This document shows positions 7,551-20,215 of a DNA stretch of 64,000 nucleotides, piece after piece. The stretch covers positions 28,541 through 92,540 of the forward strand of contig JANLFJ010000005.1 in NCBI GenBank assembly GCA_024655825.1. The letters are read 5' to 3'. The first letter of the stretch is position 1. Each line of letters opens with the position of its first letter. Origin of the DNA: Peptococcaceae bacterium. Lineage in GTDB: Bacteria > Bacillota > Peptococcia > DRI-13 > PHAD01. The notes below the pieces were generated by a model. The model was not told the DNA's origin and did no database searches. It saw only the letters and a program-made list of their open reading frames with translations. A program made the position numbers and the translations under genes.

Positions 7551-10500
7551 TTGAGATTGTTTACCCACATCAGGAAGCGTGACGACAGGATTGTGCCGTT
7601 CAATGAAAGCAAAATCACCGATGCCATTTTCGCGGCGGCAAAGGCCGTGGGGGGCGAAGACAGGCAGACGGCCGTGGAATTGACCCTGGAAGTAATGAAA
7701 TACCTGAAGAATAATTTCAACGGCGAGATTTTTGGGGTGGAAGACGTCCAGGACGCGGTGGAAAAGGTGCTGATAGAAAGAGGCCACGCCAGGACGGCCA
7801 AAGCATATATCTTGTACAGGGAAAAACGCTCCCGGATAAGGGATGCGCGTTCCGAACTTATGGACGCGGTGGCCGAGATCTTGCGCGAGACCAACAGGGA
7901 AAACGCCAACGTGGGAAATTCGCCTTCGGCCAAGGTCCTGCAGATTTCTGAAGTCGCTTCCCGGAACTATTATTTGAAGCGCGTCATCCCGGAGGATGAG
8001 GCCCGTGCCCACCTGGAAGGCGACATATACATACATGACCTGGCGTGGTACGGCAAAACGCTGACTTGTCTCCAGATTCCCCTGGACAGGCTGCTGGCGG
8101 AAGGGTTCAACAACGGGCACGGCTATATACGGCCGCCCAAGGGAATCAAGACGGCGGCCGCCCAGGCGGCCATAATTTTGCAGAGCAACCAGAACGACAT
8201 GCACGGCGGGCAGTCTTTCGCCTATTTTGACCGCGACATGGCGCCGTATGTGGAAAAGGAATACGAACGCCAGGAAAGGCTGCTGCGCGAAGCGGCCGGG
8301 AAGCTGGGAGCGGTTGCCGACGAGGAGAAAATTAAGTCGCTGGCCATGGAAAGGACGGAAAACGAGGTTTTCCAGGCCATGGAAGGCTTGATATACAACC
8401 TGAACACCATGCACTCTTTGAGCGGAAAGGAGAGGATATGGATTTATGATAAACAGAGTGGGGAAATGACCACTTATAGTATGGCGGAATTTCATGAGCA
8501 ATTCATACCGGGTCGTTATCAAGCATTAAGCGTCAATTATCAGACGGGAAGGACAGAATTGAAAGATATCACCGCTTCATTTAAACATAAGAATACACAT
8601 AAAATTCTGAACATCAAATTTAAATCCGGGCAAACAGTTGCTGTAACTGACAATCATTCCATGATCGCTTTGGGGGATGACGGGAGTATTGTTACAGCAG
8701 CGCCTGACCAGTTGAAACACGGTCTGATACCCCGCGAACTTGTATTGGAAAAAGAAGTGATAGAATTTGATTTGACCAAGTATCCCTCATCCACAAAATA
8801 TCCTCTTGAGAGATTAAGAATGACTCCGTCTTTGGCCAAATTGATGGGCATGTATGTTGCTGATGGTTCTGTTAATGGCTCAACTCTTTCTTTGGCTTTG
8901 TTTGATAAGAATCTGGAAACGGAAGCGGAAAGGATTTTGCATGACATCCACCCGGGGTTTTCTGTTCGGTTACGGGAGCATAAAGGATTGCCGCGTGATC
9001 TGGCTTGTAATGTCGGACAGCAGTTTGCGGCATTTCTGGGGGATAAATGTGGGATAGGTGCTGAGAATAAACGCATACCAAGCGAGCTGTTTTTTGCTGA
9101 CAAGAATATAGTCAAAGCCTTTCTCGATGGTTATATCTCCGGCGATGGCACTGTAGGTTCCAACCGGCTTGTGGTTGGCACTGTCTCAAAAGAATTGCGG
9201 GACGGTATCCAGCTTCTTTTCTGTAAATTGGGAATACCTGTTTATATTAGGGAGGCCTTTCCAAAAAGTCAATTTGCCAAAGCGAAGAAGCGTTACCTGA
9301 TTGCGATAGGCGGATTTTATGGCCATGAACTGTCCTTAAGCGGTGAAAAAGGAATTAAGTTGATTGAAGCAACGCAAATCTGTACGGAGCAAACCCCTTA
9401 TGACTATGATTTTTTGCGTCCTTTCATCAAAGAGGTATACGGCATTCATTGTAAAACCACCAAATACTACCGCTTGAAGCCCGAAATATTGGAAGGGATT
9501 GCGGTGGATCTGGCCAAACGGATTTTGGCCCCGGAAGAAAAGACGCAACTGGAACTTTTGGCTGATGAAGAGTTTTGGCTTAACCAGCTGACAGATGCTC
9601 TTGCAAAAATTCAAACCACTGAAAGGCATTATTTGCTTAAAATGATGTCAAAGAGAAAGCTGCCGCGTTTTTGTAAATACCTGCCGGTTTATTATCCATA
9701 TAAAGACATGTTGAAACGATTCTGCCTGTCAGAGGTTGTCAATGAAAAAACCCGCAGCCGCATCGGCAATCACTGCCAGAGTCCTATGCTGGTCATGGAT
9801 TGGGCTTGTATGGTCTTAAAACAAAACGAAAAAATGGTGAGTTTGCTGGCGGCAATCGAGAGGGCCTTACGTTTGTGGCCTATGAAAGTAAAGGAACTGA
9901 TTGAGCTGGACCATGAGGAATATGTCTATGACGTCTCGGTAGAAGGCAATGAAAATTTCTTAACGGCAGAAGGGTTATTTGTACATAACTCCAGGGCCGG
10001 GGCGCAGGTTCCGTTCTCTAGCATCAACCTGGGGACCGACACCAGCTGGGCCGGGCGCATGGTGACGGAAAAGTTCCTTTTGGCGCTTGAGAAAGGCCTG
10101 GGCAAAGGGGAGTGCGCCATATTCCCCAATGTGATTTTCAAGGTCAAGGAAGGCGTCAATTATGATCCTGATGACCCTAATTACGACCTGTTCCGGCTGA
10201 GCATGAGGGTGGCCTGCAAACGGTTGCAGCCCAACTTTTCCTTCCAGGACTCAAGCTTTAACGCCCCGTACCGCGACGAGGAGGTCGCCTATATGGGCTG
10301 CCGGACCAGAGTAATAGCCAATGTCAACGGCCGCCCGGTAACTAACGGGCGCGGGAACCTCTCTTTTACCTCCATTAATCTGCCCCGCCTGGGGCTGAAG
10401 GCGCAGGGTGATTTGACCCTGTTTTGGCAGTATCTCGATGAAATGATGAACCTGACCATCAAGCAGCTCAAGACCCGCTATGACCTGCAGAAGAAACTGA

Positions 10501-11252
10501 AGGTCAGGGACTTTCCCTTCCTGATGGGGCAAAAACTGTGCCTGGACAGCGAAGACCTTAAGCCGGACGATCCGATCGAAAAAGCGGCCCGCCATGGCAC
10601 CTTGAGCGTGGGGTTCATCGGGCTGGCCGAGTGCCTTAAAGCCTTGACGGGGAAACACCATGGGGAAAGCCAGGAAGCGCAGGCGCTTGGGCTGGCCATT
10701 GTCAGCTACATGCGGCGCCGCTGCGACGAGGCGACAAGGAAATACAGCCTTAATTACACCCTACTGGCTACTCCGGCGGAAGGCTTGAGCGGCAAATTCA
10801 CCAGGGCTGATGCGGAAAGGTTCGGGGTAATTCCCGGCATTACCGACAAGGAGTGGTATACCAATTCGTTTCATGTGCCGGTGGAATTCGACATCACGGC
10901 CATGGAAAAGATTGCTATCGAAGGGCCTTACCATAAATACTGCAATGCGGGGCATATTTCGTATGTTGAACTGCCGTCGGCCCCGCACCATAACCTGGAA
11001 GCCTTCGAATCGCTCATCAGGGCGATGCGTGAAGCCGATATGGGGTACGCAGCCGTTAATTTTCCGGTTGATGTGTGCATGGAGTGCGGGTTTAACGGCG
11101 TGATCGAGAGCGAAATATGTCCCCAATGCCATTCGGCAGGCAAAATCAGCAGGGTCCGCCGGATTACGGGCTATTTATCCACGCTGGACATGTTCAATGA
11201 AAGCAAACGGGCGGAAGAAAGAAGCCGCAAAACTCATATGACCCTAAAATAA
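7551..11252 (+). CDS. nrdD: Anaerobic (class III) ribonucleoside-triphosphate reductase, intein-containing
   Basis: N-terminal ATP cone, GDIYIHDL, MHGGQS, YMGCRT finger loop, CxxC...CxxC Zn site, RVRRITGYL glycyl-radical motif; 1233 aa because of an internal insertion. Confidence 0.97.
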   Translation: MRLFTHIRKRDDRIVPFNESKITDAIFAAAKAVGGEDRQTAVELTLEVMKYLKNNFNGEIFGVEDVQDAVEKVLIERGHARTAKAYILYREKRSRIRDARSELMDAVAEILRETNRENANVGNSPSAKVLQISEVASRNYYLKRVIPEDEARAHLEGDIYIHDLAWYGKTLTCLQIPLDRLLAEGFNNGHGYIRPPKGIKTAAAQAAIILQSNQNDMHGGQSFAYFDRDMAPYVEKEYERQERLLREAAGKLGAVADEEKIKSLAMERTENEVFQAMEGLIYNLNTMHSLSGKERIWIYDKQSGEMTTYSMAEFHEQFIPGRYQALSVNYQTGRTELKDITASFKHKNTHKILNIKFKSGQTVAVTDNHSMIALGDDGSIVTAAPDQLKHGLIPRELVLEKEVIEFDLTKYPSSTKYPLERLRMTPSLAKLMGMYVADGSVNGSTLSLALFDKNLETEAERILHDIHPGFSVRLREHKGLPRDLACNVGQQFAAFLGDKCGIGAENKRIPSELFFADKNIVKAFLDGYISGDGTVGSNRLVVGTVSKELRDGIQLLFCKLGIPVYIREAFPKSQFAKAKKRYLIAIGGFYGHELSLSGEKGIKLIEATQICTEQTPYDYDFLRPFIKEVYGIHCKTTKYYRLKPEILEGIAVDLAKRILAPEEKTQLELLADEEFWLNQLTDALAKIQTTERHYLLKMMSKRKLPRFCKYLPVYYPYKDMLKRFCLSEVVNEKTRSRIGNHCQSPMLVMDWACMVLKQNEKMVSLLAAIERALRLWPMKVKELIELDHEEYVYDVSVEGNENFLTAEGLFVHNSRAGAQVPFSSINLGTDTSWAGRMVTEKFLLALEKGLGKGECAIFPNVIFKVKEGVNYDPDDPNYDLFRLSMRVACKRLQPNFSFQDSSFNAPYRDEEVAYMGCRTRVIANVNGRPVTNGRGNLSFTSINLPRLGLKAQGDLTLFWQYLDEMMNLTIKQLKTRYDLQKKLKVRDFPFLMGQKLCLDSEDLKPDDPIEKAARHGTLSVGFIGLAECLKALTGKHHGESQEAQALGLAIVSYMRRRCDEATRKYSLNYTLLATPAEGLSGKFTRADAERFGVIPGITDKEWYTNSFHVPVEFDITAMEKIAIEGPYHKYCNAGHISYVELPSAPHHNLEAFESLIRAMREADMGYAAVNFPVDVCMECGFNGVIESEICPQCHSAGKISRVRRITGYLSTLDMFNESKRAEERSRKTHMTLK
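8415..9989 (+). mobile_element. Intein with LAGLIDADG homing endonuclease (525 aa) in nrdD
   Basis: Removing SLSGKE...FVHN restores NLNTMH/SRAGAQVPFSS; block B VTDNH, LAGLIDADG-like LMGMYVADG and FLDGYISGDG, block F VYDVSVEGNENF, terminal HN with +1 Ser; visibly more AT-rich than the exteins. Confidence 0.95.
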
Positions 11253-11322
11253 AAAGTAGATAACGGCAGTTGAAATGAAAGCGACTGCAAATCGTAACGG
11301 GAAGAGAAGCGAGGCGGGTGTT

Positions 11323-11817
11323 ATGCGACTAGCCGGAATTGTCCCTGAGAGTATCGTTGATGGCCCCGGCGTGAGAATGGTGGTTTTCGCTCAGGGCTGT
11401 CCTCATCACTGCCCGGGATGCCATAACCCGGAAACATGGGATCCCGGGGGAGGACAAGAGATGACAGTCAAAGAAATTCTCAAAATCGTAAAAAAAAAGC
11501 TGAAAAACATCAGGGGTCTCACCCTTTCAGGCGGTGAACCCTTTCTCCAGGCTGAAGAGATGGCCGCCTTGGCCGGCAAGGCCAGAGAACTGGGACTGGA
11601 TGTGGTTACCTATACGGGATATACTTATGAAGAGCTGCTGGCCCTTAATTTGCCCGGCTGGGCAAAACTGCTGGAGGTTACCGATATACTGGTAGACGGG
11701 CCTTTCTTGCAAGAGTTAAAAGATATCAGCCTTCCTTTTCGCGGTTCCAGAAACCAGAGGGTTATTGATCTCAAAGAGAAAAGAAAAAAGGGAATGAATG
11801 AATGCCAGGCCGGTTGA
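11323..11817 (+). CDS. nrdG: Anaerobic RNR activating radical SAM protein
   Basis: ESIVDGPGVR, GCPHHCPGCHN (CxxxCxxC), SGGEP, FRGSRNQR; ATG 11323 preferred over track start 11275. Confidence 0.97.
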   Translation: MRLAGIVPESIVDGPGVRMVVFAQGCPHHCPGCHNPETWDPGGGQEMTVKEILKIVKKKLKNIRGLTLSGGEPFLQAEEMAALAGKARELGLDVVTYTGYTYEELLALNLPGWAKLLEVTDILVDGPFLQELKDISLPFRGSRNQRVIDLKEKRKKGMNECQAG

Positions 11818-11876: not shown

Positions 11877-11906
11877 TACCGTCCAGATTTGTTTTGGCAT
11901 ATATTA
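11877..11906 (+). promoter_or_regulatory. SigK/SigE-type promoter
   Basis: TACC-N17-CATATATTA. Confidence 0.5.
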
Positions 11907-11944
11907 AGTTTATAGATGCTGTAATACGATCCGGAGTGAAAAAA

Positions 11945-12070
11945 ATGAACAGATATCTCGGGTATATGCTTCTTATTGTTTTTTTACCGGTATTAACGAT
12001 CCTTTTTCTCGTTTTTTTCTTGATAAACAAACTGCTCAAACTTTTTACCGGTCTGTCTTGGCGCCGCTAG
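11945..12070 (+). CDS. Small single-TM protein (41 aa), not in ORF track
   Basis: MNRYLGYMLLIVFLPVLTILFLVFFLINKLLKLFTGLSWRR; GGAG RBS and upstream CATATATTA promoter element. Confidence 0.55.
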   Translation: MNRYLGYMLLIVFLPVLTILFLVFFLINKLLKLFTGLSWRR

Positions 12071-12183
12071 ATCGCCCTGCCTTTGGCCAGTATCACGAGT
12101 ATGAGAAGGCGCCGCGCAGATGAATTGCAGGTATGACATCCTTCACCCCAACAGTACGGGCAGTATTTGCTTAGTTCTGTCAT
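12067..12183 (-). CDS. Small Zn-finger-like protein (38 aa), not in ORF track
   Basis: MTELSKYCPYCWGEGCHTCNSSARRLLILVILAKGRAI; strong AAAGGAGG RBS; CxxCxGxGCxxC. Confidence 0.6.
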   Translation of the reverse strand: MTELSKYCPYCWGEGCHTCNSSARRLLILVILAKGRAI

Positions 12184-12230
12184 AAACCATTCCTCCTTTC
12201 AGGTTGGTTTATTTAGATAAAAAAAGATGA

Positions 12231-12267
12231 AAAAAGAAGCACACTGGCGGTGCAGTCCAGTGCGCTT
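12231..12267 (-). terminator. Intrinsic terminator after the Cys-rich gene
   Basis: Minus strand AGCGCACTGG-N9-CCAGTGTGCT followed by TCTTTTTT. Confidence 0.8.
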
Positions 12268-12300
12268 CATGGACAGTAAACCCAGCGATTAACTTTAAGA

Positions 12301-12921
12301 TCAGAAACACTGGGCTGGGGGTGGAAGAGGGCATACACCCGGCAGGGTTACACACGGCGCCGGTACGCAAAAACCATAGCTGGGAACGAGAAGCTGAACG
12401 GTAAGGATGCACTTGATAACAAAACAAACCTGGATGTTGCAGCTTACGGTTATGCTTCCCAAGTTAACCGCGGTGACAACACAGCTGCATACGATGAGCG
12501 AGCTTTCCGAGCAGTCGGGGCTCACGCCTTCTGGGCAGCACAGCGTGACTGTCTTGGTAAAGGTAACTGTCTCCGTTGTGGTTTCTGCAGCGGCGTTGGG
12601 ATTGGTAAGAACCAGGGGGACCGTCACCAGGACCGTAACAGTGAAAAAACCGTCGCCTACAGCCGTGCGGCTTACTTCTATGCAACTGATACCGGCGGAA
12701 CCCAGAGCGCAGGGGACGGCCTGACCCACAGTAAAGGTACCTGTCGGGAACTCGCCGCCGATTCCGGTGGTCACGGTAAAATCGCGGGTAAGGTCGTGAA
12801 TCTGGAAACAGCTGTCGTATACTTTATCTACGACTATGCATTCAATCCGGGTTGGCGGTGGGCAACCTTCCGGTGGGCATACGCCTGGCGAAACTTGCTC
12901 AAGCTTTGCTTTATCTGCCAT
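12301..12921 (-). CDS. Cysteine-rich putative spore coat/exosporium protein
   Basis: 18 Cys in 206 aa, IECIVVDKVYDSC and LLVPSYGFCVP motifs seen in clostridial spore-surface proteins, AAGGAGG RBS, no signal peptide. Confidence 0.7.
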   Translation of the reverse strand: MADKAKLEQVSPGVCPPEGCPPPTRIECIVVDKVYDSCFQIHDLTRDFTVTTGIGGEFPTGTFTVGQAVPCALGSAGISCIEVSRTAVGDGFFTVTVLVTVPLVLTNPNAAAETTTETVTFTKTVTLCCPEGVSPDCSESSLIVCSCVVTAVNLGSITVSCNIQVCFVIKCILTVQLLVPSYGFCVPAPCVTLPGVCPLPPPAQCF

Positions 12922-12966
12922 CTCATTTTCCTCCTTGTTGATTTTTAAATGGGTTTTTTTCTAATG

Positions 12967-12995
12967 TATTGTATTAGCCAAGTCTATAAGTTGTT
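12967..12995 (-). promoter_or_regulatory. SigK-type promoter
   Basis: AACA-N16-AATACAATA on the minus strand. Confidence 0.55.
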
Positions 12996-13074
12996 ACAAA
13001 TAAAAATGAAAAAATAATGTCAGGTGTTGATAGGAAATACTGTGAGACCATCCAGGACTCTACTGGCAACTTTT

Positions 13075-13395
13075 TCAACCGCGCCGCACATGATGATAAC
13101 CAAGGTTGGAAATAATGTGAGCAATGGTGGAAAGCGAAGTTGAAACGGGGTTGAAGTATACCGTTAGATTTTTTTGATGGAGAAGCGGCTTTACCCTGAC
13201 AACTCCGCTTTGAGCAAGCAGTGCGGATGATATTTTTTCCGCGTCGTTCTTGCTTTTCATATCCGTTATATTAATTGTGTAAGCGAATTCTTTTCCCACA
13301 ACGTGGTAAAAATTAACTCCAGACTGCTGGAAAGGTTGAGTTTTTGAACCCTGGTTTGCCCAGAGGGGATCAAGTCTTTTTTTGTACCAGCTCAT
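13075..13395 (-). CDS. HMA-fold protein lacking the CxxC motif
   Basis: TINITDMKSKNDAEKISSAL...SGVVRV...LTVYFNP...IISNLGY follows the HMA pattern; GGAGG RBS. Confidence 0.7.
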   Translation of the reverse strand: MSWYKKRLDPLWANQGSKTQPFQQSGVNFYHVVGKEFAYTINITDMKSKNDAEKISSALLAQSGVVRVKPLLHQKNLTVYFNPVSTSLSTIAHIISNLGYHHVRRG

Positions 13396-13450
13396 TCTGA
13401 AACCTCCATTATTACGGTCAGCTTCCAGTTGATTCTAATAGTCCCCGATT

Positions 13451-13478
13451 CATTATATTCTGCTACAGGCTAAATGTT
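13451..13478 (-). promoter_or_regulatory. SigK-type (or SigA -10) promoter
   Basis: AACA-N15-AATATAATG on the minus strand. Confidence 0.4.
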
Positions 13479-13651
13479 CGTACCTGGTGTCCTGGAAATA
13501 AGCAGCAAAGTATTTTAAAGAGGCAATATTTTACGCAAGACCCGTTGCCCAGCTATTATTCAGGCCGGGAGTCAGGACAACCCAATGTATCAAATTTGTA
13601 TTGGTTTTTAGGATGGTATATAGTTAAGGCAAAATGATTGAGGGGGCTGCC

Positions 13652-14227
13652 ATGAAAAGAAGTATGAAGAGGAATACGGCTGTTTTACTGCTGGCGCTGT
13701 TTGTTTCCTGTATTTTTTTTACCGGACAGGCTTACGCTTCGTGGGGAGCGGCAAAAATAGCCGAACTGAGAGCTAAACAAAGCGGCGGGACCGTTATGCC
13801 GGAGCCAATGCCGCCTGTTCAGGAACCGCCTGCCGGTCAAGGAGAAATGTCTCAAGAAGAGTCACTGCTGTTGAAGCTTGTTAATGACGAAAGAACGAAG
13901 AACGGGTTGAAGCCGCTTCAGCCAATGCCGGAATTGAACCACCTGGCGCGCCTTAAAAGCGAAGACATTATAAAGTACAACTATTTTTCGCACACTTCAC
14001 CAACTTACGGTTCTTTTGCTAAAATGGTGTATGATGCAGGCATAAGGTTTTATTCGGTTGGTGAGAACCTGGCCAAAGGGAGGAGCGTTACCCATGCCTT
14101 TTATATGTTTTTGGGGAGCGCCGGACACAGGGCCAACATGTTAAACAGCAGCTTCACACATACCGGGATTGGCGTAGTTCATGATCAGTATGGCGTGGTA
14201 GTTACCCAGTTGTTTATTATGAAGTAA
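13652..14227 (+). CDS. Secreted CAP (SCP/YkwD-like) domain protein
   Basis: Signal peptide ending QAYA, Pro-rich linker, NYFSHTSPTYG, GENLA, SAGHRANML, GIGV; ATG 13652 follows GAGGGGG RBS (track start 13634). Confidence 0.9.
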   Translation: MKRSMKRNTAVLLLALFVSCIFFTGQAYASWGAAKIAELRAKQSGGTVMPEPMPPVQEPPAGQGEMSQEESLLLKLVNDERTKNGLKPLQPMPELNHLARLKSEDIIKYNYFSHTSPTYGSFAKMVYDAGIRFYSVGENLAKGRSVTHAFYMFLGSAGHRANMLNSSFTHTGIGVVHDQYGVVVTQLFIMK

Positions 14228-14245
14228 AAATTTTTGCTTTAATGT

Positions 14246-14270
14246 AAACCCGGTATTACCGGGTTTTTTA
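14246..14270 (+). terminator. Intrinsic terminator
   Basis: AAACCCGGT-ATT-ACCGGGTTT followed by TTTA. Confidence 0.8.
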
Positions 14271-14361
14271 TGTTCGATTACGAAACAAGTATATTCCACC
14301 GCGTGAGTAACAAAAAAGCCACCTTAGGTAAGCATTGTTAAATGCTTTTTTATTTCGATAT

Positions 14362-14390
14362 GACATCTTTGGCTGGGGTCTCATATAGTG
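14362..14390 (+). promoter_or_regulatory. SigK-type promoter
   Basis: GACA-N16-CATATAGTG. Confidence 0.65.
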
Positions 14391-14423
14391 ATAATAGTAA
14401 AAAAATGAAGGTGGGATAACGCC

Positions 14424-15593
14424 ATGTTTAACGTTTACTGGGGAGACCGGTTCCTGGCCACATATGAAAAGAAAAAGGAAACACCCTTTCTGACATTTTG
14501 CGCCGCGAATGGGATACCCTGCGAGTATCGCAGCGGGGCAGAGGAGTATGTTGTTTTTCCGGTCTTAAATGGAGTCACTGTGGCCCTGTCTTCTCTAAAT
14601 GCGAATAATAAGAATGCACAAGAAGTGGCAAAACAACTTTCAGAAAGTCTGTCTCCCTGGGGGGCGCTCGTAGTCTTCCTTCACCGCGACTTAAAAAATC
14701 TTGGACTCATAAAGATACTGAAGGTGCAGATACTTTTAGCCCTGGAGGAAAGTGCAGACAGGCAGGAAACGGGTAAGCTGCGGTTTTTTTATTCTTTAAG
14801 ACAAAAGAAAGAAAGCCTGGCTATCATCGCTTCAATTGCCAAGCAATTATTGAAGTCAAGGACAGGTATCACCATGGAAATATCCACCATATGCGATGTT
14901 GTCAAGAATCTGAAGTACATAAAGTATTATTTCTGCAATGTGCCCACCGTCTTGATTGAAATTGCCGGGCTGGATGTTTTCCAGCTGGAAAACCTGGAAA
15001 GAGCTCTGCTGAACGGCATACTGGAAAGATACGGCAGTATTTCACCAGAAGAGCAGTCGACAAAAATAAAAAGGCTGCAGGAGTATATGGAGGAACAGGA
15101 ACAAGAACAGGCAAATGAGGCGGCAGAAGAGGAGATGCCTGACCCTGGAGAAAGCCGGGATACAAAAAAGGAAGAATTCGACTATTCGGTGAACGAGAGA
15201 GAAACACAATCAAAAGAAGATATTATGTCTCAACAGAGGCGGCAGCCAGGCCATAAGAACCAGGCGCAGCCGGAAACTAACGGATGGAAGGTGTCTGGAG
15301 ATTCACCGGTCGAAAGAGGCAAGAACAAGAAAAGACATTACGGAAAACAAACATCAGCTCTTTTTCCGCCGGGCGATGGACCAGTTTATCAATTTGAGGC
15401 GTCTCAGAAAAACAATGTGCTTCAATCCGCTTCCTTGCTGGCGATAGTTGACAGGGAGAACGTGGTCAGCAGTTTTAACGACGAAATCAGAAAAACGGCG
15501 GAGTGGATAGTCCGGCAGGGCGGCTGTATATCCAAACAGAATGCTGGCGAAAACGAAAGTGTGTCCAATTCAGATGACGAGCATATCATATAG
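14424..15593 (+). CDS. Degenerate Amidase_3-like protein with acidic low-complexity tail
   Basis: Central region tracks the amidase fold (LNGVTVAL, GALVVFL, NVPTVLIEIAG, LLNGILERY) but the Zn-binding His residues are absent. Confidence 0.6.
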   Translation: MFNVYWGDRFLATYEKKKETPFLTFCAANGIPCEYRSGAEEYVVFPVLNGVTVALSSLNANNKNAQEVAKQLSESLSPWGALVVFLHRDLKNLGLIKILKVQILLALEESADRQETGKLRFFYSLRQKKESLAIIASIAKQLLKSRTGITMEISTICDVVKNLKYIKYYFCNVPTVLIEIAGLDVFQLENLERALLNGILERYGSISPEEQSTKIKRLQEYMEEQEQEQANEAAEEEMPDPGESRDTKKEEFDYSVNERETQSKEDIMSQQRRQPGHKNQAQPETNGWKVSGDSPVERGKNKKRHYGKQTSALFPPGDGPVYQFEASQKNNVLQSASLLAIVDRENVVSSFNDEIRKTAEWIVRQGGCISKQNAGENESVSNSDDEHII

Positions 15594-15643
15594 TGGGAGT
15601 TAAGCCTCCCAGGTGGGCGCTTATTGCATCTCATGAATTCCTC

Positions 15644-15680
15644 ATTGGGGAGGATCAGGCGATCCTCCCCAATTCTTTTT
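15644..15680 (+). terminator. Intrinsic terminator
   Basis: ATTGGGGAGGATC-AGGC-GATCCTCCCCAAT followed by TCTTTTT. Confidence 0.85.
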
Positions 15681-15770
15681 CCTGTTATGCCTTAAATTAC
15701 CTGCTGAAATTATCCCCTTCGTGTGTTAAGGTAGTATAGGCTGTCATAAATACTTTCACAGGAGGGAAAA

Positions 15771-16592
15771 ATGATTAGTAAAACAAAAAGCGGTATAGCT
15801 TTTGTGCTGCTTCTGGTTTTCTGCCTGCTGATACTGGCGCCCGCGGTCCAGGCCGCACCCGTTGTCGCCAAGCCGGGTGACAGCAGCGCCACGATTGGCG
15901 AAATCAATATGATGCTTAAGTCTTTGGGATACTACTACGGACCGGTATCAGACAAGTACGGTGTTTCCACCAAATACGCCGTAATCATTTTCCAAAGGAT
16001 GCACAGGCTGCCGGCTACCGGTACGGTGGACGAGCTTACCTACCAGGTTTTAAAGAACGAGTTTAATACAAAAACCGGTGGTGATAAAACACCGGCACCA
16101 AGTCCAGAGCCTGCTCCTGTCCAAGAACCGAACCCGCAGCCAGGCACGCAGCCTAAGCCGGAACCCGCACCGGTTCCCGAACCAGCCCCATCACCTGCGC
16201 CTGTTTATGGTCTGACAACCGATGAACAAAAAATGTATGAACTGATAAACCAGGAACGGGCCAAAGCCGGGGTTGCTCCCCTGCAGCTAGACATGAGACT
16301 GGTGGAAAGCGCGCGGATAAAAAGCAAGGATATGATTGACAATAACTATTTCAGTCACACCTCACCGGTTTACGGAGGATTTGCGACCCTGATCCGCAAG
16401 TATGCGCCCGATTACAGATACATCGGGGAAAATATCGCTGGCAACAGGACGGTTGAAGCAGCACAAAGCGCGTTCATGAACAGTGAAGGGCACCGCAGGA
16501 ATATACTCAACCCCAATTATACTCATGTGGGAATAGGGGTTGTTGACGGCGGCCCGTACGGGAAGATGATTACCCAGCATTTTGGCGGTTAG
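15771..16592 (+). CDS. Secreted PG_binding_1 + Pro-rich linker + CAP domain protein
   Basis: Signal peptide ending AVQA, PGB pattern GDS...LGYY...AVIIFQ...TGTVD, NYFSHTSP, GENIA, SEGHRRNILNP. Confidence 0.9.
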   Translation: MISKTKSGIAFVLLLVFCLLILAPAVQAAPVVAKPGDSSATIGEINMMLKSLGYYYGPVSDKYGVSTKYAVIIFQRMHRLPATGTVDELTYQVLKNEFNTKTGGDKTPAPSPEPAPVQEPNPQPGTQPKPEPAPVPEPAPSPAPVYGLTTDEQKMYELINQERAKAGVAPLQLDMRLVESARIKSKDMIDNNYFSHTSPVYGGFATLIRKYAPDYRYIGENIAGNRTVEAAQSAFMNSEGHRRNILNPNYTHVGIGVVDGGPYGKMITQHFGG

Positions 16593-16614
16593 GAAAAGAA
16601 TAGCGAGAAGAACT

Positions 16615-16651
16615 AAAAGAGATTAAACCCATAAAAGGTTTAATCTCTTTT
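16615..16651 (+). terminator. Intrinsic (probably bidirectional) terminator
   Basis: AAAAGAGATTAAACC-N7-GGTTTAATCTCTTTT perfect 15-bp stem. Confidence 0.85.
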
Positions 16652-16664
16652 AATTATTTACAGT

Positions 16665-16693
16665 AACCAAATTGTTGTACATGCAATATCATA
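16665..16693 (+). promoter_or_regulatory. SigK-type promoter
   Basis: AACC-N16-AATATCATA. Confidence 0.5.
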
Positions 16694-16736
16694 TATCAGG
16701 CAGTCCTAAATACTTATGCCGGAAAGGAGATTATGC

Positions 16737-16952
16737 ATGTTCCCAAATGACCTGGAAAAGATTTTTCAAACTGAAGACGCAGCCCTGGAAAAGTTAGCTA
16801 ATTTTCTTTTGGATGTTTTAAAATCTGGAGAAAATAACATGGATTCTAACTTGGGAAAGTCATCGTGTTGTTGCCCTGGGTTAATAAAATTTAAGGTCAT
16901 CGGCAGTACTGTGGTTATAATTAATAACAATGCCGAATGCAAGCGCGATTGA
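16737..16952 (+). CDS. Small CCCP-motif protein, paralog A (71 aa)
   Basis: AAAGGAG RBS before ATG 16737 (track start 16716); shares C-terminal motif with 17081..17335. Confidence 0.8.
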   Translation: MFPNDLEKIFQTEDAALEKLANFLLDVLKSGENNMDSNLGKSSCCCPGLIKFKVIGSTVVIINNNAECKRD

Positions 16953-17006
16953 AATTCTGTCCGATTTTTATCATCCTGTTTTTAAAACTGGTTCTTCAAA
17001 AAAAGT

Positions 17007-17034
17007 AACTAAAAGAAGGTAGAAGCATAGTATA
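17007..17034 (+). promoter_or_regulatory. SigK-type promoter
   Basis: AACT-N15-CATAGTATA. Confidence 0.55.
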
Positions 17035-17080
17035 TAATTGGTCGAGCTAATAATCATTATTCTGGAAGGAGGTTTTTATA

Positions 17081-17335
17081 TTGAAGATTAATGAGATACT
17101 TGAGATTCCTCCCGTTCTTACCCCGGAGGTTATTCAGGCCATTGCCGATAACGCTGAGGCACTAAAAGCGTTAAAAGCGGTTTTAAGTTCAGGCGATGAG
17201 GCTGTGGCGTTAAGCAATGACTGCCATTCTAAAGATTGCTGCTGCCCTAAATTCCTGAAATTCAAGATCATTGGCTGTACTGTCATTATTATCAACGACA
17301 ATGCAGAATGTAAAGAAAACAATAATTCTGATTAA
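17081..17335 (+). CDS. Small CCCP-motif protein, paralog B (84 aa)
   Basis: AAGGAGG RBS, TTG start; CCCPKFLKFKIIGCTVIIINDNAECK. Confidence 0.8.
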   Translation: MKINEILEIPPVLTPEVIQAIADNAEALKALKAVLSSGDEAVALSNDCHSKDCCCPKFLKFKIIGCTVIIINDNAECKENNNSD

Positions 17336-17352
17336 GAAAAGACGTATTAATC

Positions 17353-17380
17353 ATCCGGGAGTGTACAGCTCCCGGATTTT
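17353..17380 (+). terminator. Intrinsic terminator
   Basis: ATCCGGGAG-TGTACAG-CTCCCGGAT followed by TTT. Confidence 0.7.
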
Positions 17381-17516
17381 GCATCACTAACCCGTCCAAC
17401 AACTTGCAACAAACAGCAATCGTGCCGGCAACTTTCCTACAATTACCACGAGACTTTATTCGCTAAACATGCTATTTTATGGATACAGGAAAAATTTTAG
17501 GGAAAGAGGGAATGGC

Positions 17517-18320
17517 ATGATGAAAAAAAGAACCGTAACGACAATTGGTACCCTTGTTTTCCTTTTTTTTACGCTGGCATTCTTAGCTTCGCCCATGAAC
17601 GCAGTTGCCAGCAGTTTGCCGGTTAGCGATACCGGTTCCCAGGACAACCCGATAGTAGCGAAAATGGGCGACAGCGGCCCGGTTGTCAGGGAGATAAAAA
17701 CAATGCTCGGAGCGCTGCGCTATATCAATTTTTACGGGACGCCCAGTACATATTACACAAGGGTTACTGCATACGGGGTTTATTATTTTCAGCGCGACAA
17801 TAGGCTGGACATGACCGGTATGGTGGACCTCCGCACCTATAATCTCCTGCAGGCCAAATACCTGGCCATGCTGGGAAGGCCGGCGCCTTCACCGGCTCCC
17901 GCACCTTCGCCGGCTCCGGTGACGGGCTTGACGGCGGAAGAACAAACGATGATCGATCTTGTTAACCAGGAACGGCTCAAGGCCGGTGTCGCTCCGCTGC
18001 AAGTGGACATGAGGCTGGTGGAAAGCGCGAGACTTAAGAGCCAGGATATGATCGACAATAATTATTTCAGTCACACTTCGCCCACCTGGGGCCAGTTTTA
18101 CACGATCATTCGCCAGAAAACGGGGTCGGATTACGGTTACCTCGGTGAAAACCTGGCGGGAGCGCCGTCGGTTCAAACGGCCCACAGCCTGTTAATGAAC
18201 AGCGAAGGACACCGTCAAAACATTCTAAATCCAAACTACACGCATATTGGGATCGGCATTAAAAAAGGCGGACCGTATGGTATGATGTTCACCCAGCACT
18301 TTGGCGGCGCTGCCAGGTAA
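17517..18320 (+). CDS. Secreted PG_binding_1 + Pro-rich linker + CAP domain protein (paralog of 15771..16592)
   Basis: Signal peptide, GDSGPVVREIK...FQRDNRL...TGMVD, NYFSHTSP, GENLA, SEGHRQNILNP; ATG 17517 after AAGAGGG (track start 17469). Confidence 0.9.
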   Translation: MMKKRTVTTIGTLVFLFFTLAFLASPMNAVASSLPVSDTGSQDNPIVAKMGDSGPVVREIKTMLGALRYINFYGTPSTYYTRVTAYGVYYFQRDNRLDMTGMVDLRTYNLLQAKYLAMLGRPAPSPAPAPSPAPVTGLTAEEQTMIDLVNQERLKAGVAPLQVDMRLVESARLKSQDMIDNNYFSHTSPTWGQFYTIIRQKTGSDYGYLGENLAGAPSVQTAHSLLMNSEGHRQNILNPNYTHIGIGIKKGGPYGMMFTQHFGGAAR

Positions 18321-18363
18321 AATTACTTTTCGATATTTTTGCTGTGTTTTTATGTTGCCAAGT

Positions 18364-18393
18364 CACTCCTTCCTTGTACCCATTCATATTATA
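18364..18393 (+). promoter_or_regulatory. SigK/SigE-type promoter
   Basis: CACT-N17-CATATTATA. Confidence 0.55.
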
Positions 18394-18435
18394 GGTTAGG
18401 CTCTATTAGTTGTGCTGAAAAAAGGAGGGAGTTAA

Positions 18436-19212
18436 TTGCACGAATATGAATTTACGGCCCAGGTGAAACAATTGTGGAAGGACCCGGAGATTCAGGCGCT
18501 GGCCAGGCGCTGCTACCATAAATTATTTAAATGCACGCCAGTTATCCTGGAAAAGGTTTGTGCATCCGGGACCAAGTGTTTTCACGACATTCATTATCTC
18601 TTTGAAACAGAAGGAGGACTTCCCATCCCGCCCGATGCATGTCCCATCAATTGCGTGGTAAGCAATTTTGCCATCTGCGGCGTGGGAACGGCGCCGTTGA
18701 AGCCTGGCGTGCTTGCCCCGCGCAGGGTAGGAGAATGCATAGTTTTCACCGTTGTCTACAAAGTCCGTGTCTGGTTTGAATTCTTTGATACGGTCAATAA
18801 CAGCGTGGAAGTGGGGATGGCAAGTCAATGTTTCGAGCGCGAGCTGGCGGTACCCGTTGAGGATATAGACGGGGGCTGTGTGCTTTGCCAGCCGGAGGCG
18901 GTCGATCTCTGCATCAGGAGAATAAATCTCGACTGTATCAGGGCCGTGGTTGTACCCCGCCCTGAAGGGTTTCCCAAGTCTTTCCCCCCATACGCTATTG
19001 AAGTTACGGTGGAAAAGGAATTCTTTGCGCTGGAATCGGGAAGGTCTATTGTCTGTTTGCCCACATGTGTCGAGGAGTGTATCGAACTGCCGTTTCCGAT
19101 CTTTCCGGGAGAGTGTGTGCCGTTTGAGAAAGAGGCCAAGTGCGACGAATTTTGCCAGGAAACGGACCTGCAGCCCGGCCGCTGCGCCCAGTGCCCGCCG
19201 CCTCAGCCATGA
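18436..19212 (+). CDS. Cysteine-rich putative spore coat/exosporium protein
   Basis: 21 Cys in 258 aa, Pro-rich, no signal peptide, AAAGGAGG RBS with TTG start. Confidence 0.7.
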   Translation: MHEYEFTAQVKQLWKDPEIQALARRCYHKLFKCTPVILEKVCASGTKCFHDIHYLFETEGGLPIPPDACPINCVVSNFAICGVGTAPLKPGVLAPRRVGECIVFTVVYKVRVWFEFFDTVNNSVEVGMASQCFERELAVPVEDIDGGCVLCQPEAVDLCIRRINLDCIRAVVVPRPEGFPKSFPPYAIEVTVEKEFFALESGRSIVCLPTCVEECIELPFPIFPGECVPFEKEAKCDEFCQETDLQPGRCAQCPPPQP

Positions 19213-19238
19213 GACTATGGGTTTGCATAACAGGCTGT

Positions 19239-19270
19239 CAAAAAAGCCACTTTACCAGGTGGCTTTTTTG
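19239..19270 (+). terminator. Intrinsic terminator ending the island
   Basis: CAAAAAAGCCAC-N8-GTGGCTTTTTTG. Confidence 0.85.
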
Positions 19271-19381: not shown

Positions 19382-20215
19382 TTGACAGGCTTATTTGTAA
19401 AAAAGGAAAAAGAGGGAATCACATTTTATCAAGCGGCTTCATTCGAGGCTGCGGGATTAGTAGTTCACGCTTTCACCGGAAGAAAAGGAGGAGTCAGCAG
19501 AGGACTCTTTGAGAGTTTAAATTTGAGCATCTTGACGCAGGACTTGCTGGAAAACGTCCTGGAAAACAGGAGGAGATTGTGCGGGATACTCGGGATCAGC
19601 CCTGACAGCCTGACAGGAGCCCGGCAGGTACACGGGGACAGTGTTTACCTGGTAAGAGAGAACGATAAAGGCCGGGGCGCCAGACAGCCTGGTTCGGTTA
19701 TTCCCGCTGCCGATGCCCTGATGACTGCTGTGCCTGGAATTACCTTGGTTGCCTTTTTTGCAGACTGTGTGCCCGTGTTTTTTTTGGATCCCGTAAAAAA
19801 GGCTGTTGCCTTAACCCATGCTGGCTGGAAAGGAACTGTCGCCGGGATTGCCGCGAAAACGGCAGCGGCGATGACCCGGGCTTTCGGAACAAAACCGGAA
19901 GACCTTCTGGCAGCAGTGGGGCCGAGTATAGGGCCATGTCATTACCAGGTGGATGGTCCGGTTATTGAAAGGGTCAGGCTGGCCTTCCCGGATGATTATG
20001 GTGAATTGCTGCCTGGTATGACGGCGGACGGTCACGCTCGGTTCAATCTCTGGGAAGCCAATGTACGCCAGATTCGCAGTTTGGGAGTACCTGCCCAAAA
20101 CATAACCGTGGCCGGTATTTGCACATACTGCGAGCAAGAGAACTTCTTTTCGCATCGCCGGGGAATGGCGGGAAGGCAGGCGGCTTTAATTATGTTAAAA
20201 AATGAGCAGGGGTGA
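19382..20215 (+). CDS. pgeF: Peptidoglycan editing factor PgeF / purine nucleoside phosphorylase (YlmD/YfiH)
   Basis: QVHG, ADALMT, ADCVPV, HAGWKG, GPSIGPCHY, CTYC...FFSHRR. Confidence 0.95.
   Translation: MTGLFVKKEKEGITFYQAASFEAAGLVVHAFTGRKGGVSRGLFESLNLSILTQDLLENVLENRRRLCGILGISPDSLTGARQVHGDSVYLVRENDKGRGARQPGSVIPAADALMTAVPGITLVAFFADCVPVFFLDPVKKAVALTHAGWKGTVAGIAAKTAAAMTRAFGTKPEDLLAAVGPSIGPCHYQVDGPVIERVRLAFPDDYGELLPGMTADGHARFNLWEANVRQIRSLGVPAQNITVAGICTYCEQENFFSHRRGMAGRQAALIMLKNEQG

What the first reader, a model, noticed from the sequence alone, without database searches (positions are those of the whole stretch)
11877..19270. Candidate undescribed late-sporulation spore-surface island
Seen: about 7.4 kb between nrdG and pgeF holding 11 genes with no housekeeping function. 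These are two large Cys-rich proteins, two paralogous CCCP micro-proteins, two further micro-ORFs, a Cys-less HMA protein, a pseudo-amidase and three secreted CAP proteins, two with PG-binding domains. Most are monocistronic with their own terminators. Seven of the eight non-secreted genes have a CATAnnnT-type promoter; the three signal-peptide CAP genes do not. Established: Cys-rich proteins build coats and exosporia, CAP proteins of the YkwD/YlbC type are linked to sporulation, and SigK drives late mother-cell genes. Inference: a two-compartment module in which disulfide-crosslinked outer layers made in the mother cell are paired with secreted cortex-binding CAP proteins and non-catalytic scaffolds.
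Basis: partly seen in the sequence, partly recalled or inferred. Interest (0 to 1): 0.8.

Follow-up and report, generated by a model that had tools for sequence, protein, structure and literature searches.

The report
Conserved late-sporulation spore-envelope gene cluster
This 7.4 kb stretch of an uncultured anaerobic spore-former is a real, widely conserved cluster of genes that most likely build the cross-linked outer layers of the spore; several members are very distant, cysteine-rich relatives of known Bacillus coat organisers, so it is a new variant of a known kind, not a new kind.

Summary
Ten solid genes and one doubtful micro-ORF lie between nrdG and pgeF, inside the ftsZ-spoIIGA-sigE-sigG-ylmC...pgeF region.

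- **Promoters:** Seven non-secreted genes carry an AC-N16-18-[C/A]ATAnnnT[A/G] site, against 1.7 expected. It matches the conserved yabG promoter of this lineage and differs from the spoIVA promoter. The three CAP genes lack it.
- **206-aa protein (18 Cys):** a distant relative of the BMQ_0737 spore-coat family.
- **258-aa protein (21 Cys):** a divergent CotE relative, linked through one intermediate homolog.
- **389-aa protein:** it has an Amidase_3 fold without the zinc ligands, so it is a pseudo-amidase.
- **Linkage:** Across 80 genomes, a CAP gene, the pseudo-amidase or the Cys-less HMA gene each lies within 9 kb of the 206-aa homolog in 30-33 loci. These include Moorella, Alkaliphilus and Sulfobacillus.
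- **Distribution:** Both Cys-rich families occur only in SpoIVA-positive relatives.

The late mother-cell, disulfide-layer reading is supported. The "two-compartment, cortex-binding" role of the CAP proteins is untested, because their conserved promoter looks sigma-A-like. No sigK gene is in this assembly and no expression data exist. "Undescribed" is only partly right.

The parts
11878..11906 (+). sigma-K-type promoter-like site before the 41-aa peptide (AC-N18-CATATATTA)
   Evidence: pattern scan; read directly
11945..12070 (+). 41-aa single-transmembrane peptide (MNRYLGYMLLIVFLPVL...)
   Evidence: 73% identical, and also called as a gene, in a relative with about 83% nucleotide identity
12067..12183 (-). 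38-aa CPYCWGEGCHTC ORF; doubtful gene
   Evidence: It has a ribosome-binding site, but no homolog in relatives and no promoter. It lies directly after the Cys206 terminator.
12236..12284 (-). intrinsic terminator of Cys206 (dG -21 kcal/mol, T-run)
12301..12921 (-). Cys206: 206-aa all-beta protein with 18 Cys and Cys/Pro-rich flexible ends; distant BMQ_0737-family relative
   Evidence: NF052457 scores 28.4 bits over the full length. 25 of 30 family members hit it, best E 3.2e-11. More than 160 homologs exist. AF2 pLDDT is 82. Orthologs are 59-80% identical across families.
12967..12994 (-). promoter of Cys206: GTAACA-N16-AATACAATA, conserved in orthologs
13075..13395 (-). HMA106: HMA-fold protein without any Cys, with a conserved MSWY N-terminus
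   Evidence: Pfam HMA scores 26.4 bits against a cut-off of 24.8. It has 0 Cys. Orthologs lie next to Cys206 in 30 of 80 loci.
13451..13477 (-). promoter of HMA106: GAAC-N16-AATATAATG
13596..13624 (+). sigma-A-like promoter of CAP197 (TTGTAT-N17-TATAGT); orthologs share TTGTTG-N17-TATAGT and an upstream CCGACAAC element
13652..14227 (+). CAP197: secreted YkwD-type CAP protein (191 aa counted from the start codon that follows the ribosome-binding site)
   Evidence: PF00188 E 1e-15. TIGR02909 scores 134 bits. Orthologs lie next to Cys206 in 32 of 80 loci.
14246..14266 (+). terminator of CAP197
14363..14390 (+). promoter of p389: AC-N17-CATATAGTG, conserved as CATATAGTGATAGTAG in orthologs
14424..15593 (+). 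p389: cytoplasmic pseudo-amidase. It has an Amidase_3-fold domain at residues 1-236, a disordered acidic/basic region at 238-351, and a conserved PPxDGPVFQF motif.
   Evidence: AF2 model. Foldseek hits 5emi (E 1.2e-6) and 4rn7 (E 7.8e-6). The 16-sequence alignment has no conserved His, and E179 is invariant.
15644..15673 (+). terminator of p389 (dG -23 kcal/mol)
15771..16592 (+). PGCAP273: signal peptide + PG_binding_1 + Pro-rich linker + CAP domain
16614..16652 (+). terminator of PGCAP273
16666..16693 (+). promoter-like site of cccp71 (AC-N17-AATATCATA)
16737..16952 (+). cccp71: CCCP micro-protein
   Evidence: It belongs to a family of about 20 small proteins with invariant CCP..K..N. The pair is absent from the nearest relative.
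17008..17034 (+). promoter of cccp84 (AC-N16-CATAGTATA)
   Evidence: Family members in two other genomes have the same type of site.
17081..17335 (+). cccp84: CCCP micro-protein, paralog of cccp71
   Evidence: A 73% homolog lies in the same island of another genome.
17353..17377 (+). terminator of cccp84
17517..18320 (+). PGCAP283: signal peptide + PG_binding_1 + CAP domain; paralog of PGCAP273 (50-54% identity)
18365..18393 (+). promoter of Cys258: GTCAC-N18-CATATTATA, conserved in orthologs
18436..19212 (+). Cys258: 258-aa protein with 21 Cys; divergent CotE-family relative
   Evidence: 54 homologs. Member P0172 is 47% identical and passes the Pfam CotE cut-off, 32 bits against 25, over residues 10-163. 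A second member gets a weak colinear CotE hit.
19239..19270 (+). terminator of Cys258

Best explanation
The stretch is a conserved cluster of late mother-cell sporulation genes whose products most likely build and organise the outer, disulfide-cross-linked layers of the spore (outer coat or exosporium-like layer). The host is an uncultured Peptococcia bacterium.

**Core of the cluster.** Four genes stay linked across very distant spore-formers:
- a BMQ_0737-like all-beta protein with 18 Cys (Cys206);
- a Cys-less HMA-fold protein (HMA106);
- a cytoplasmic pseudo-amidase with a long disordered tail (p389);
- a secreted YkwD-type CAP protein.

**Additions.** Peptococcia add a 21-Cys CotE-like protein next to pgeF. 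This genome further adds two PG_binding_1-CAP paralogs, a tandem pair of CCCP micro-proteins and a 41-aa membrane peptide.

**Proposed working.**
- Shown: motif, conservation, homology and fold.
- Inferred: sigma-K RNA polymerase transcribes the seven non-secreted genes late in the mother cell. Cys206 and Cys258 self-assemble around the forespore. They are locked by intermolecular disulfides through their flexible Cys/Pro-rich ends, as in CsxA, CsxC, CdeC, CotY and ExsY. The pseudo-amidase and the HMA protein act as non-catalytic adaptors. The CCCP micro-proteins act as small cross-linking partners.
- Open: the CAP proteins are exported by Sec from a sigma-A-like promoter. Their role and compartment remain unknown.
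For: **Promoters.**
- Seven AC-N16-18-[C/A]ATAnnnT[A/G] sites occur against 1.7 expected. All lie upstream of, and in the same orientation as, non-secreted genes.
- The same sites are conserved before the orthologs of Cys206, HMA106, p389 and Cys258 in up to 14 genomes, and in a further metagenomic island.
- The motif equals the conserved yabG promoter in 15 of 16 relatives, including this genome.
- It differs from the conserved spoIVA promoter.

**Homology.**
- Cys206 matches NF052457, the BMQ_0737 morphogenetic spore coat family, over its full length. 25 of 30 family members hit it.
- BMQ_0737 is an outer-layer protein of B. megaterium spores (PMC4656864).
- The Cys258 family member P0172 passes the Pfam CotE cut-off.
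- p389 has an Amidase_3 fold without conserved zinc ligands.

**Linkage.**
- The order nrdDG-Cys206-HMA-CAP-p389-(PGCAP)-Cys258-pgeF is kept in several families of the order.
- Moorella keeps Cys206-p389-HMA.
- In 80 species-level loci, a CAP gene (32), p389 (32) or HMA (30) lies within 9 kb of Cys206.
- All CAP genes of this genome lie in the island.
- CCCP genes sit in the same island in another genome.

**Phyletic pattern.** Cys206 or Cys258 is present in 23 of 29 SpoIVA-positive relatives and in 0 of 12 SpoIVA-negative relatives (Fisher P = 2e-6).

**Context.** The island lies in the ftsZ-spoIIGA-sigE-sigG-ylmC region.

**Precedent.** Cys-rich SPOCS proteins form crystalline, disulfide-linked spore layers in Clostridia (bioRxiv 10.64898/2026.09.03.749163; PMC7333573).
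Against: - No expression or protein data exist. No public run holds the stretch.
- The Moorella orthologs (by position Moth_1266-1270) and their peptides are not in the held, truncated spore-proteome supplement.
- No sigK gene is present in this assembly, although 18 of 25 relatives have one.
- Both homology links are sub-threshold for the window's own proteins. Cys206 scores 28 bits against a cut-off of 71. Cys258 has no direct CotE hit.
- Neither Cys-rich protein hits Pfam SipL/DUF3794.
- The Cys206 model has no PDB neighbour.
- Three of the seven promoter sites read AATA instead of CATA.
- The conserved CAP promoter is sigma-A-like.
- The phyletic test is not corrected for phylogeny. The absences come mostly from two families.
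Confidence: 0.65

Rival explanations
1. Only the genes with the sigma-K-type promoter are spore-envelope genes. The three CAP proteins are ordinary secreted, wall-associated proteins made from sigma-A promoters in growing or pre-divisional cells. They stay next to the coat genes through shared ancestry of the block, not through shared function.
For: The conserved CAP197 promoter is TTGTTG-N17-TATAGT. No sigma-K-type site precedes any CAP gene. All three have Sec signal peptides. A weak NCBIfam hit points to the divisome-associated lipoprotein DalA.
Against: CAP genes lie within 9 kb of a Cys206 homolog in 32 of 80 species, including distant Sulfobacillus, Thermaerobacter, Alkaliphilus and Natronincola. 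About 2% would be expected by chance. All CAP genes of this genome are in the island. The CAP domains are of the YkwD type, which is known only from endospore-formers (TIGR02909). B. subtilis YlbC, a CAP/YkwD protein, is sigma-F-regulated and affects germination (PMC6568419).
Confidence: 0.25
2. The block is a conserved piece of the sigE-sigG-ylmC...ylmD chromosome region. It holds several sporulation genes that act independently in different steps, so there is no common structure or module.
For: The island lies inside the ftsZ-spoIIGA-sigE-sigG-PRC-nrdR-nrdDG...pgeF region. Most genes have their own promoter and about half have their own terminator. Cys206 and Cys258 are unrelated in sequence.
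Against: The Cys206-p389-HMA trio is also kept in Moorella in a wholly different chromosomal context, next to Moth_1265 and Moth_1272. The Cys206-HMA-CAP group is kept in Alkaliphilus and Natronincola. Linkage therefore survives relocation, which points to selection for co-location or co-regulation.
Confidence: 0.15
3. The Cys-rich products are not structural. They are redox or metal-handling proteins, or in the case of the CCCP micro-proteins and the CPYCWGEGCHTC peptide, secreted bacteriocin-like or modified peptides.
For: The products have a high Cys content. An HMA-fold gene is present. Weak sub-threshold NCBIfam hits of Cys258-family members point to small Cys peptide families (actinodefensin, CCPGW) at E of 1 or more.
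Against: The HMA protein has no Cys at all. There are no leader peptides, modification enzymes or transporters in the island. The promoters are of the mother-cell type. The full-length similarity is to coat proteins. Sequence conservation is very high, 59-80% across families, which is typical of lattice-forming structural proteins.
Confidence: 0.05

Closest known systems
BMQ_0737 family morphogenetic spore coat protein (NCBIfam NF052457; prototype from Priestia/Bacillus megaterium QM B1551)
   Same: Cys206 aligns colinearly over its full length, residues 28-205 against model positions 2-193 of 199. 25 of 30 Cys206-family members hit the model. The prototype sits in the outermost spore layers and is needed for their integrity (PMC4656864, citing Manetsberger 2014).
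   Different: The score is far below the curated cut-off, 28 bits against 71. Cys206 comes from anaerobic Peptococcia, Moorella and Clostridia. It has 18 invariant or near-invariant Cys and Cys/Pro-rich arms. It is linked to HMA, pseudo-amidase and CAP genes.
CotE, outer-coat morphogenetic protein of Bacillaceae (Pfam PF10628)
   Same: A 47%-identical member of the Cys258 family passes the CotE gathering score over 154 residues. A second member gets a weak hit to the same part of the model. Both are mother-cell genes.
   Different: Cys258 itself gives no direct hit. It has 21 Cys, whereas CotE is Cys-poor. It ends in a Cys/Pro-rich tail instead of an acidic tail. CotE was reported as absent from Clostridia and Moorella (PMC8745062).
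Cys-rich SPOCS/DUF3794 lattice proteins CsxA and CsxC (C. sporogenes), CdeC (C. difficile), and the csxA gene cluster
   Same: These are Cys-rich, beta-rich, self-assembling proteins that form disulfide-locked spore outer layers. They are encoded in small clusters with other envelope genes. UniRef labels some Cys206 homologs as "SipL SPOCS domain-containing".
   Different: No Pfam DUF3794/SipL hit was found for Cys206 or Cys258. No collagen-like or glycosyltransferase genes lie in the island. The partners here are a pseudo-amidase, an HMA-fold protein and CAP proteins.
YkwD/YlbC-type CAP proteins of endospore-formers (TIGR02909, PF00188)
   Same: All three CAP domains match TIGR02909 at 134-164 bits. 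They have signal peptides. YlbC is sigma-F-regulated and affects germination in B. subtilis.
   Different: The scores are just below the 171-bit cut-off. Two are fused to PG_binding_1. The conserved promoter looks sigma-A-like rather than sigma-F or sigma-G.
Amidase_3 N-acetylmuramoyl-L-alanine amidases (AmiC2 5emi, C. difficile 4rn7, CwlD type)
   Same: The fold of p389 residues 1-236 matches these enzymes, with Foldseek probability 1.0 and TM-score 0.57-0.60 on the target. The VPTVLxEI segment with an invariant Glu is kept.
   Different: There is no Pfam hit. No His or Glu ligands are conserved at the zinc site. The protein has no signal peptide and carries a roughly 150-aa disordered tail. 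It is therefore cytoplasmic and very probably non-catalytic.

Membership tests
BMQ_0737 family (NF052457) | HMM score at or above the curated cut-off (71 bits) | tested here: not met
   Cys206 scores 28.4 bits, E 1.7e-6. The best family member reaches E 3.2e-11.
BMQ_0737 family (NF052457) | Colinear full-length similarity shared by the whole family | tested here: met
   Residues 28-205 align to model positions 2-193 of 199. 25 of 30 members hit the model.
BMQ_0737 family (NF052457) | Location in, and requirement for, the outermost spore layers | not testable with these tools
   This needs fusions or mutants in a cultivable carrier.
CotE (PF10628) | HMM score at or above the gathering score (25 bits) | tested here: not met
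   There is no hit for Cys258 or anywhere in this genome. Only the homolog P0172 passes, at 32 bits. The G009 homolog gets E 0.12.
CotE (PF10628) | Cys-poor protein with an acidic C-terminal tail | tested here: not met
   Cys258 has 21 Cys and a tail reading PGRCAQCPPPQP.
SPOCS / DUF3794 (PF12673) | Pfam SipL/DUF3794 domain match | tested here: not met
   None of 30 Cys206-family members hits at E up to 1. The whole-genome scan finds only a true SipL with three domains on another contig.
SPOCS / DUF3794 (PF12673) | SPOCS beta fold | tested here: inconclusive
   The AF2 model is all-beta with long strands. No SPOCS structure is in the PDB library and no hit falls below E 0.001.
Amidase_3 (PF01520) | Amidase_3 fold | tested here: met
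   Foldseek hits 5emi (E 1.2e-6), 4rn7 (E 7.8e-6) and Cwp6 5j72.
Amidase_3 (PF01520) | Zinc ligands (His, Glu, His) conserved | tested here: not met
   The invariant columns of the 16-sequence alignment are Y42, P46, G80, Y165, P174, E179 and P316. None is a His.
HMA (PF00403) | HMM score at or above the gathering score | tested here: met
   26.4 bits against 24.8.
HMA (PF00403) | GMxCxxC metal-binding motif | tested here: not met
   The protein has no Cys. The motif position reads DMKSKND.
YkwD-type CAP (TIGR02909 / PF00188) | PF00188 match, and TIGR02909 at or above 171 bits | tested here: inconclusive
   PF00188 is met, E 1e-15 to 2e-20. TIGR02909 scores 134, 164 and 159 bits, just below the cut-off.
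Sigma-K regulon | AC-N17-CATAnnnTA promoter at the right distance, conserved in orthologs | tested here: met
   Three of the sites are AATA variants.
Sigma-K regulon | sigK gene present in the genome | tested here: not met
   No sigK was found in this 98-contig assembly. It is present in 18 of 25 relatives, and split in some.
Sigma-K regulon | Late, sigK-dependent transcription | not testable with these tools
   No public runs hold the stretch.

The most novel reading that the evidence does not exclude
The quartet of BMQ_0737-like Cys-rich protein, Cys-less HMA protein, cytoplasmic pseudo-amidase and YkwD-type CAP protein may be an ancient, self-contained outer-spore-layer assembly system. It is shared by Peptococcia, Moorella, Alkaliphilus/Natronincola and, in part, Sulfobacillus and Thermaerobacter. 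It would fill the place of the CotE/SafA-type encasement machinery that is reported missing from these anaerobes. In this reading a wall-hydrolase fold is re-used as a protein-binding scaffold in the mother cell. A secreted CAP partner on the other side of the outer forespore membrane completes the system. The Cys-rich CotE-like protein of Peptococcia would then be a sequence-level bridge between CotE and the Cys-rich lattice proteins of Clostridia.
Probability: 0.2. Interest if true: 0.8.

Novelty: new variant of a known kind. Interest (0 to 1): 0.55.

Why it matters
How anaerobic spore-formers outside Bacillus and a few pathogenic clostridia build their outer spore layers is largely unknown. 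The Moorella spore study found no CotE, SafA or SipL equivalents (PMC8745062).

This cluster gives a short, conserved and testable list of candidates:
- two strongly conserved Cys-rich building blocks with distant links to BMQ_0737 and CotE;
- two new non-catalytic accessory families, a pseudo-amidase and a Cys-less HMA protein;
- a micro-protein family.

It also gives the first genomic argument that YkwD-type CAP proteins belong with them. Several carriers can be cultivated, including Moorella thermoacetica, whose spores are among the most heat-resistant known. The hypotheses can therefore be tested directly.

Tried and rejected
- **RNA-seq or DNA runs for the stretch or for Cys258 alone:** none could be listed.
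- **DpaA (TIGR02853) as a sigma-K reference promoter:** this lineage has no DpaA. yabG was used instead.
- **Cys206 against Cys258:** BLASTP and profile-profile comparison show no relationship beyond short PG-C-PP tails.
- **PDB by sequence:** the Cys206 and Cys258 profiles and P0172 give nothing.
- **PDB by fold for Cys206:** nothing below E 0.001.
- **Pfam on 30 Cys206 homologs:** no hits.
- **Direct CotE scan of this genome and 40 relatives:** only one weak hit.
- **Moorella spore proteome supplement:** the file held is truncated. Tags Moth_1266-1271 and six predicted tryptic peptides are absent, while control tags are found. This is inconclusive.
- **Micro-ORFs and CCCP genes in the 14 syntenic loci:** tblastn finds nothing.
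- **Rfam scan of the island:** nothing credible.
- **Repeats:** only the two PGCAP paralogs.
- **A horizontally acquired island as the explanation for the whole block:** rejected because gene order is conserved across families. Only the low-GC cccp pair looks like a recent insertion.

Full report
**What is there.**
- Between nrdG (11275-11817) and pgeF (19382-20215) lie ten well-supported genes and one doubtful ORF.
- Pfam and NCBIfam give these results:
  - HMA for the 106-aa protein, 26.4 bits against a cut-off of 24.8;
  - CAP for three proteins, two of which also carry PG_binding_1;
  - TIGR02909 (YkwD) at 134-164 bits for all three CAP proteins;
  - nothing for the 389-aa protein, the two CCCP micro-proteins or the 258-aa Cys-rich protein.
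- The 206-aa Cys-rich protein gives a full-length but sub-threshold match to NF052457, the "BMQ_0737 family morphogenetic spore coat protein" (28.4 bits, cut-off 71).
- Cys content is 18 of 206 and 21 of 258. The HMA protein has no Cys.
- The three CAP genes are the only ones in the 3.16 Mb assembly.
- The left flank reads ftsZ, spoIIGA, sigE, sigG, a metallo-beta-lactamase gene, PRC-barrel (ylmC type), a second metallo-beta-lactamase gene, nrdR, nrdD (with an intein) and nrdG. The island therefore sits inside the classical sporulation and division region that ends with ylmD/pgeF.

**The individual proteins: Cys206.**
- It has more than 160 homolog clusters, all annotated as hypothetical. They come from Peptococcaceae MAGs, Moorella, Zhaonella, Alkaliphilus and Natronincola.
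- The N- and C-terminal motifs are nearly invariant: PGxCPPEGCPPPTRIECIVVDKVYDSCFQ and VQLLVPSYGFCVPAPCVTLPGVCPP.
- 25 of 30 members hit NF052457, best E 3.2e-11. None hits any Pfam model.
- The AF2 model (pLDDT 82) is all-beta with very long strands. The Cys/Pro-rich ends have low confidence. It has no PDB neighbour.
- BMQ_0737 is an outer-layer protein of B. megaterium spores that is needed for their integrity.

**The individual proteins: Cys258.**
- It has 54 homolog clusters, almost all from uncultured Peptococcia.
- One member, P0172, is 47% identical and passes the Pfam CotE gathering score over residues 10-163.
- A second member, in relative G009, gets a weak hit to the same part of the model.
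- Cys258 itself and this genome give no direct CotE hit. I put the CotE relationship at about 70%.
- Cys206 and Cys258 are not detectably related to each other.

**The individual proteins: p389.**
- It evolves fast, with 22-37% identity to the aligned homologs.
- It keeps a roughly 215-aa N-terminal domain with VPTVLxEI, a long acidic/basic stretch and a PPxDGPVFQF motif.
- In the AF2 model, residues 1-236 are confident and 238-351 are disordered.
- Foldseek places the domain with the Amidase_3 enzymes AmiC2 (5emi, E 1.2e-6), the C. difficile amidase 4rn7 and Cwp6.
- No His is conserved and only one Glu (E179) is invariant.

**The individual proteins: CCCP micro-proteins.**
- They belong to a small family of about 20 representatives, 63-121 aa long. 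CCP, K and N are invariant, and the first Cys, FK and the A and C of NA.C are nearly so.

**Promoters and terminators.**
- I compared the upstream regions of orthologs from 14 syntenic loci:
  - Cys258 orthologs share G(T/A)CAC-N17/18-CATA(T/G)(T/A)ATA.
  - p389 orthologs share AC-N17-CATATAGTGATAGTAG.
  - Cys206 orthologs share GTAACA-N16-AATACAATA.
  - HMA orthologs share GAAC-N16/17-AATAnnATAA.
- As lineage-specific references I used yabG, which is mother-cell expressed and sigma-K-dependent in B. subtilis. 15 of 16 orthologs, including the one in this genome, carry AAC-N17-CATAGAATA.
- The second reference was spoIVA, a sigma-E gene. Its orthologs share a different motif, GTAATAAATA-N14-TATATATGT.
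- The island genes match the yabG type.
- The pattern AC-N16-18-[C/A]ATAnnnT[A/G] occurs 7 times in the island against 1.7 expected from the genome-wide density (P = 0.002). The strict CATA form occurs 4 times against 0.63.
- All seven sites lie 30-70 nt upstream of, and in the same orientation as, the 41-aa peptide, Cys206, HMA106, p389, cccp71, cccp84 and Cys258.
- CCCP genes in two other genomes have the same kind of site.
- The CAP197 orthologs share a different promoter, TTGTTG-N17-TATAGT, plus an upstream CCGACAAC element. This is sigma-A-like.
- Good terminators follow Cys206, CAP197, p389, PGCAP273, cccp84 and Cys258. None follows HMA106, cccp71 or PGCAP283.
- Caveat: no sigK gene is in this assembly, even when it is searched with the sigK of a same-family relative. 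18 of 25 relatives have one, and in four of them it is split.

**Conservation.**
- In 14 genomes from several families of the same order, the order nrdDG, Cys206 (minus strand), HMA (minus strand), CAP, p389, optional PGCAP, Cys258, pgeF and response regulator is kept.
  - Cys206 is 59-80% identical across these genomes and Cys258 is 44-80%.
  - CAP197 is 44-57% identical, HMA is 32-48% and p389 is 23-32%.
- A pattern scan of one genome per species returned 80 loci with a Cys206 homolog.
  - Within 9 kb, 32 have a CAP gene, 32 have p389, 30 have the HMA gene and 5 have Cys258.
  - Moorella keeps Cys206-p389-HMA in a quite different context, next to the M55 peptidase Moth_1265 and the amidase Moth_1272.
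  - Alkaliphilus and Natronincola keep Cys206-HMA-CAP. Sulfobacillus and Thermaerobacter keep Cys206 with a CAP gene.
- A 73% homolog of cccp84 lies, again as a tandem pair, between nrdG and Cys206 in the same island of another metagenomic genome.
- In the nearest relative (about 83% nucleotide identity) the pair is absent, while the 41-aa peptide is kept.
- Among 41 relatives, Cys206 or Cys258 occurs in 23 of 29 genomes with SpoIVA and in none of 12 without (Fisher P = 2e-6). This test is not corrected for phylogeny.

**How it most likely works.**
- *Shown:* the conserved mother-cell-type promoter motif, the conserved linkage, the restriction to spore-formers, the distant homology to two outer-coat proteins, the amidase fold without ligands, and the HMA fold without Cys.
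- *Inferred:*
  - The seven non-secreted genes are transcribed late in the mother cell.
  - Cys206 and Cys258 self-assemble on the forespore surface and become locked by disulfides through their flexible Cys/Pro ends.
  - This follows the principle shown for CsxA, CsxC, CdeC, CotY and ExsY.
  - p389 and HMA106 serve as adaptors, and the CCCP micro-proteins as small cross-link partners.
- *Open:* the CAP proteins are exported. Recurrent linkage argues that they belong to the system, but their sigma-A-like promoter leaves the time and compartment undecided. B. subtilis YlbC, a CAP/YkwD protein, is sigma-F-regulated and affects germination.

**Comparison with the known.**
- The kind of thing is known: a small cluster of mother-cell genes encoding Cys-rich self-assembling spore-envelope proteins. 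Examples are the csxA cluster, exsY/cotY and cotVWXYZ.
- The composition is not described. It consists of BMQ_0737-like and CotE-like Cys-rich proteins with a pseudo-amidase, a Cys-less HMA protein, YkwD-type CAP proteins and CCCP micro-proteins.
- The Moorella spore study reported no CotE, SafA or SipL equivalents. This genome does have a true SipL with three DUF3794 domains next to yabG.
- Earlier notes of this scan on other genomes reached the same family assignments for the two Cys-rich proteins. I had derived them independently before reading those notes.

**Verdict.** It is a new variant of a known kind, of moderate interest.

Noticed in passing
whole assembly G000; relatives G003, G006, G012, G016: No sigK gene is found in this assembly, although yabG and the island carry sigma-K-type promoters. 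In four relatives the sigK halves (model positions 7-145 and 139-226) lie far apart or on different contigs, as expected for interruption by a skin-like element.
   Followed up: partly
window 13540-13595 and orthologous loci L016, L020, L024, L026, L160: A conserved element, (T/A)AAC-CGACAAC-TT, lies about 12 nt upstream of the -35 box of the CAP197 promoter. Its core resembles a reversed Spo0A box (TTCGACA) at 5-6 of 7 positions.
   Followed up: no
G000:C8:31689-32831 (minus strand), next to yabG at C8:33579-34436: A 519-aa ORF with three tandem DUF3794/SipL domains lies directly beside yabG. It is a true SipL-type coat morphogenetic protein.
   Followed up: no
window 16500-17500: The cccp71/cccp84 pair lies in a GC trough, 0.37-0.39 against about 0.48. 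It is missing between the two PGCAP genes of the nearest relative (L159), so it looks like a recent insertion of a tandem micro-gene pair.
   Followed up: partly
relatives G010, G011, G020, G022; P0086, P0091, P0093 and G006:C21: Both Cys-rich families expand. Several relatives have two or three adjacent Cys258 copies on one contig. Longer Cys206 paralogs of 318-400 aa carry a large insert or repeat after the N-terminal motif.
   Followed up: no
L071 12478-12753; L160 8332-8610; upstream part of the HMA ORF in L015, L016 and L018: A second small conserved protein of about 91 aa (...AVYPLVKEI...PSFIDYLL...) precedes the HMA gene in Moorella and some Peptococcia. In L160 it carries the sigma-K-type promoter. 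It is absent from the window.
   Followed up: no
window 12301-12921 and 18436-19212: The two unrelated Cys-rich proteins end in similar tails, PGVCPLPPPAQCF and PGRCAQCPPPQP. This may be a shared cross-linking or docking motif.
   Followed up: no
window 7551-11252: nrdD carries a large intein, giving a 1233-aa ORF. Some relatives have the intein-free 706-aa form and one has a 1042-aa form. Other notes of this scan already cover it.
   Followed up: no
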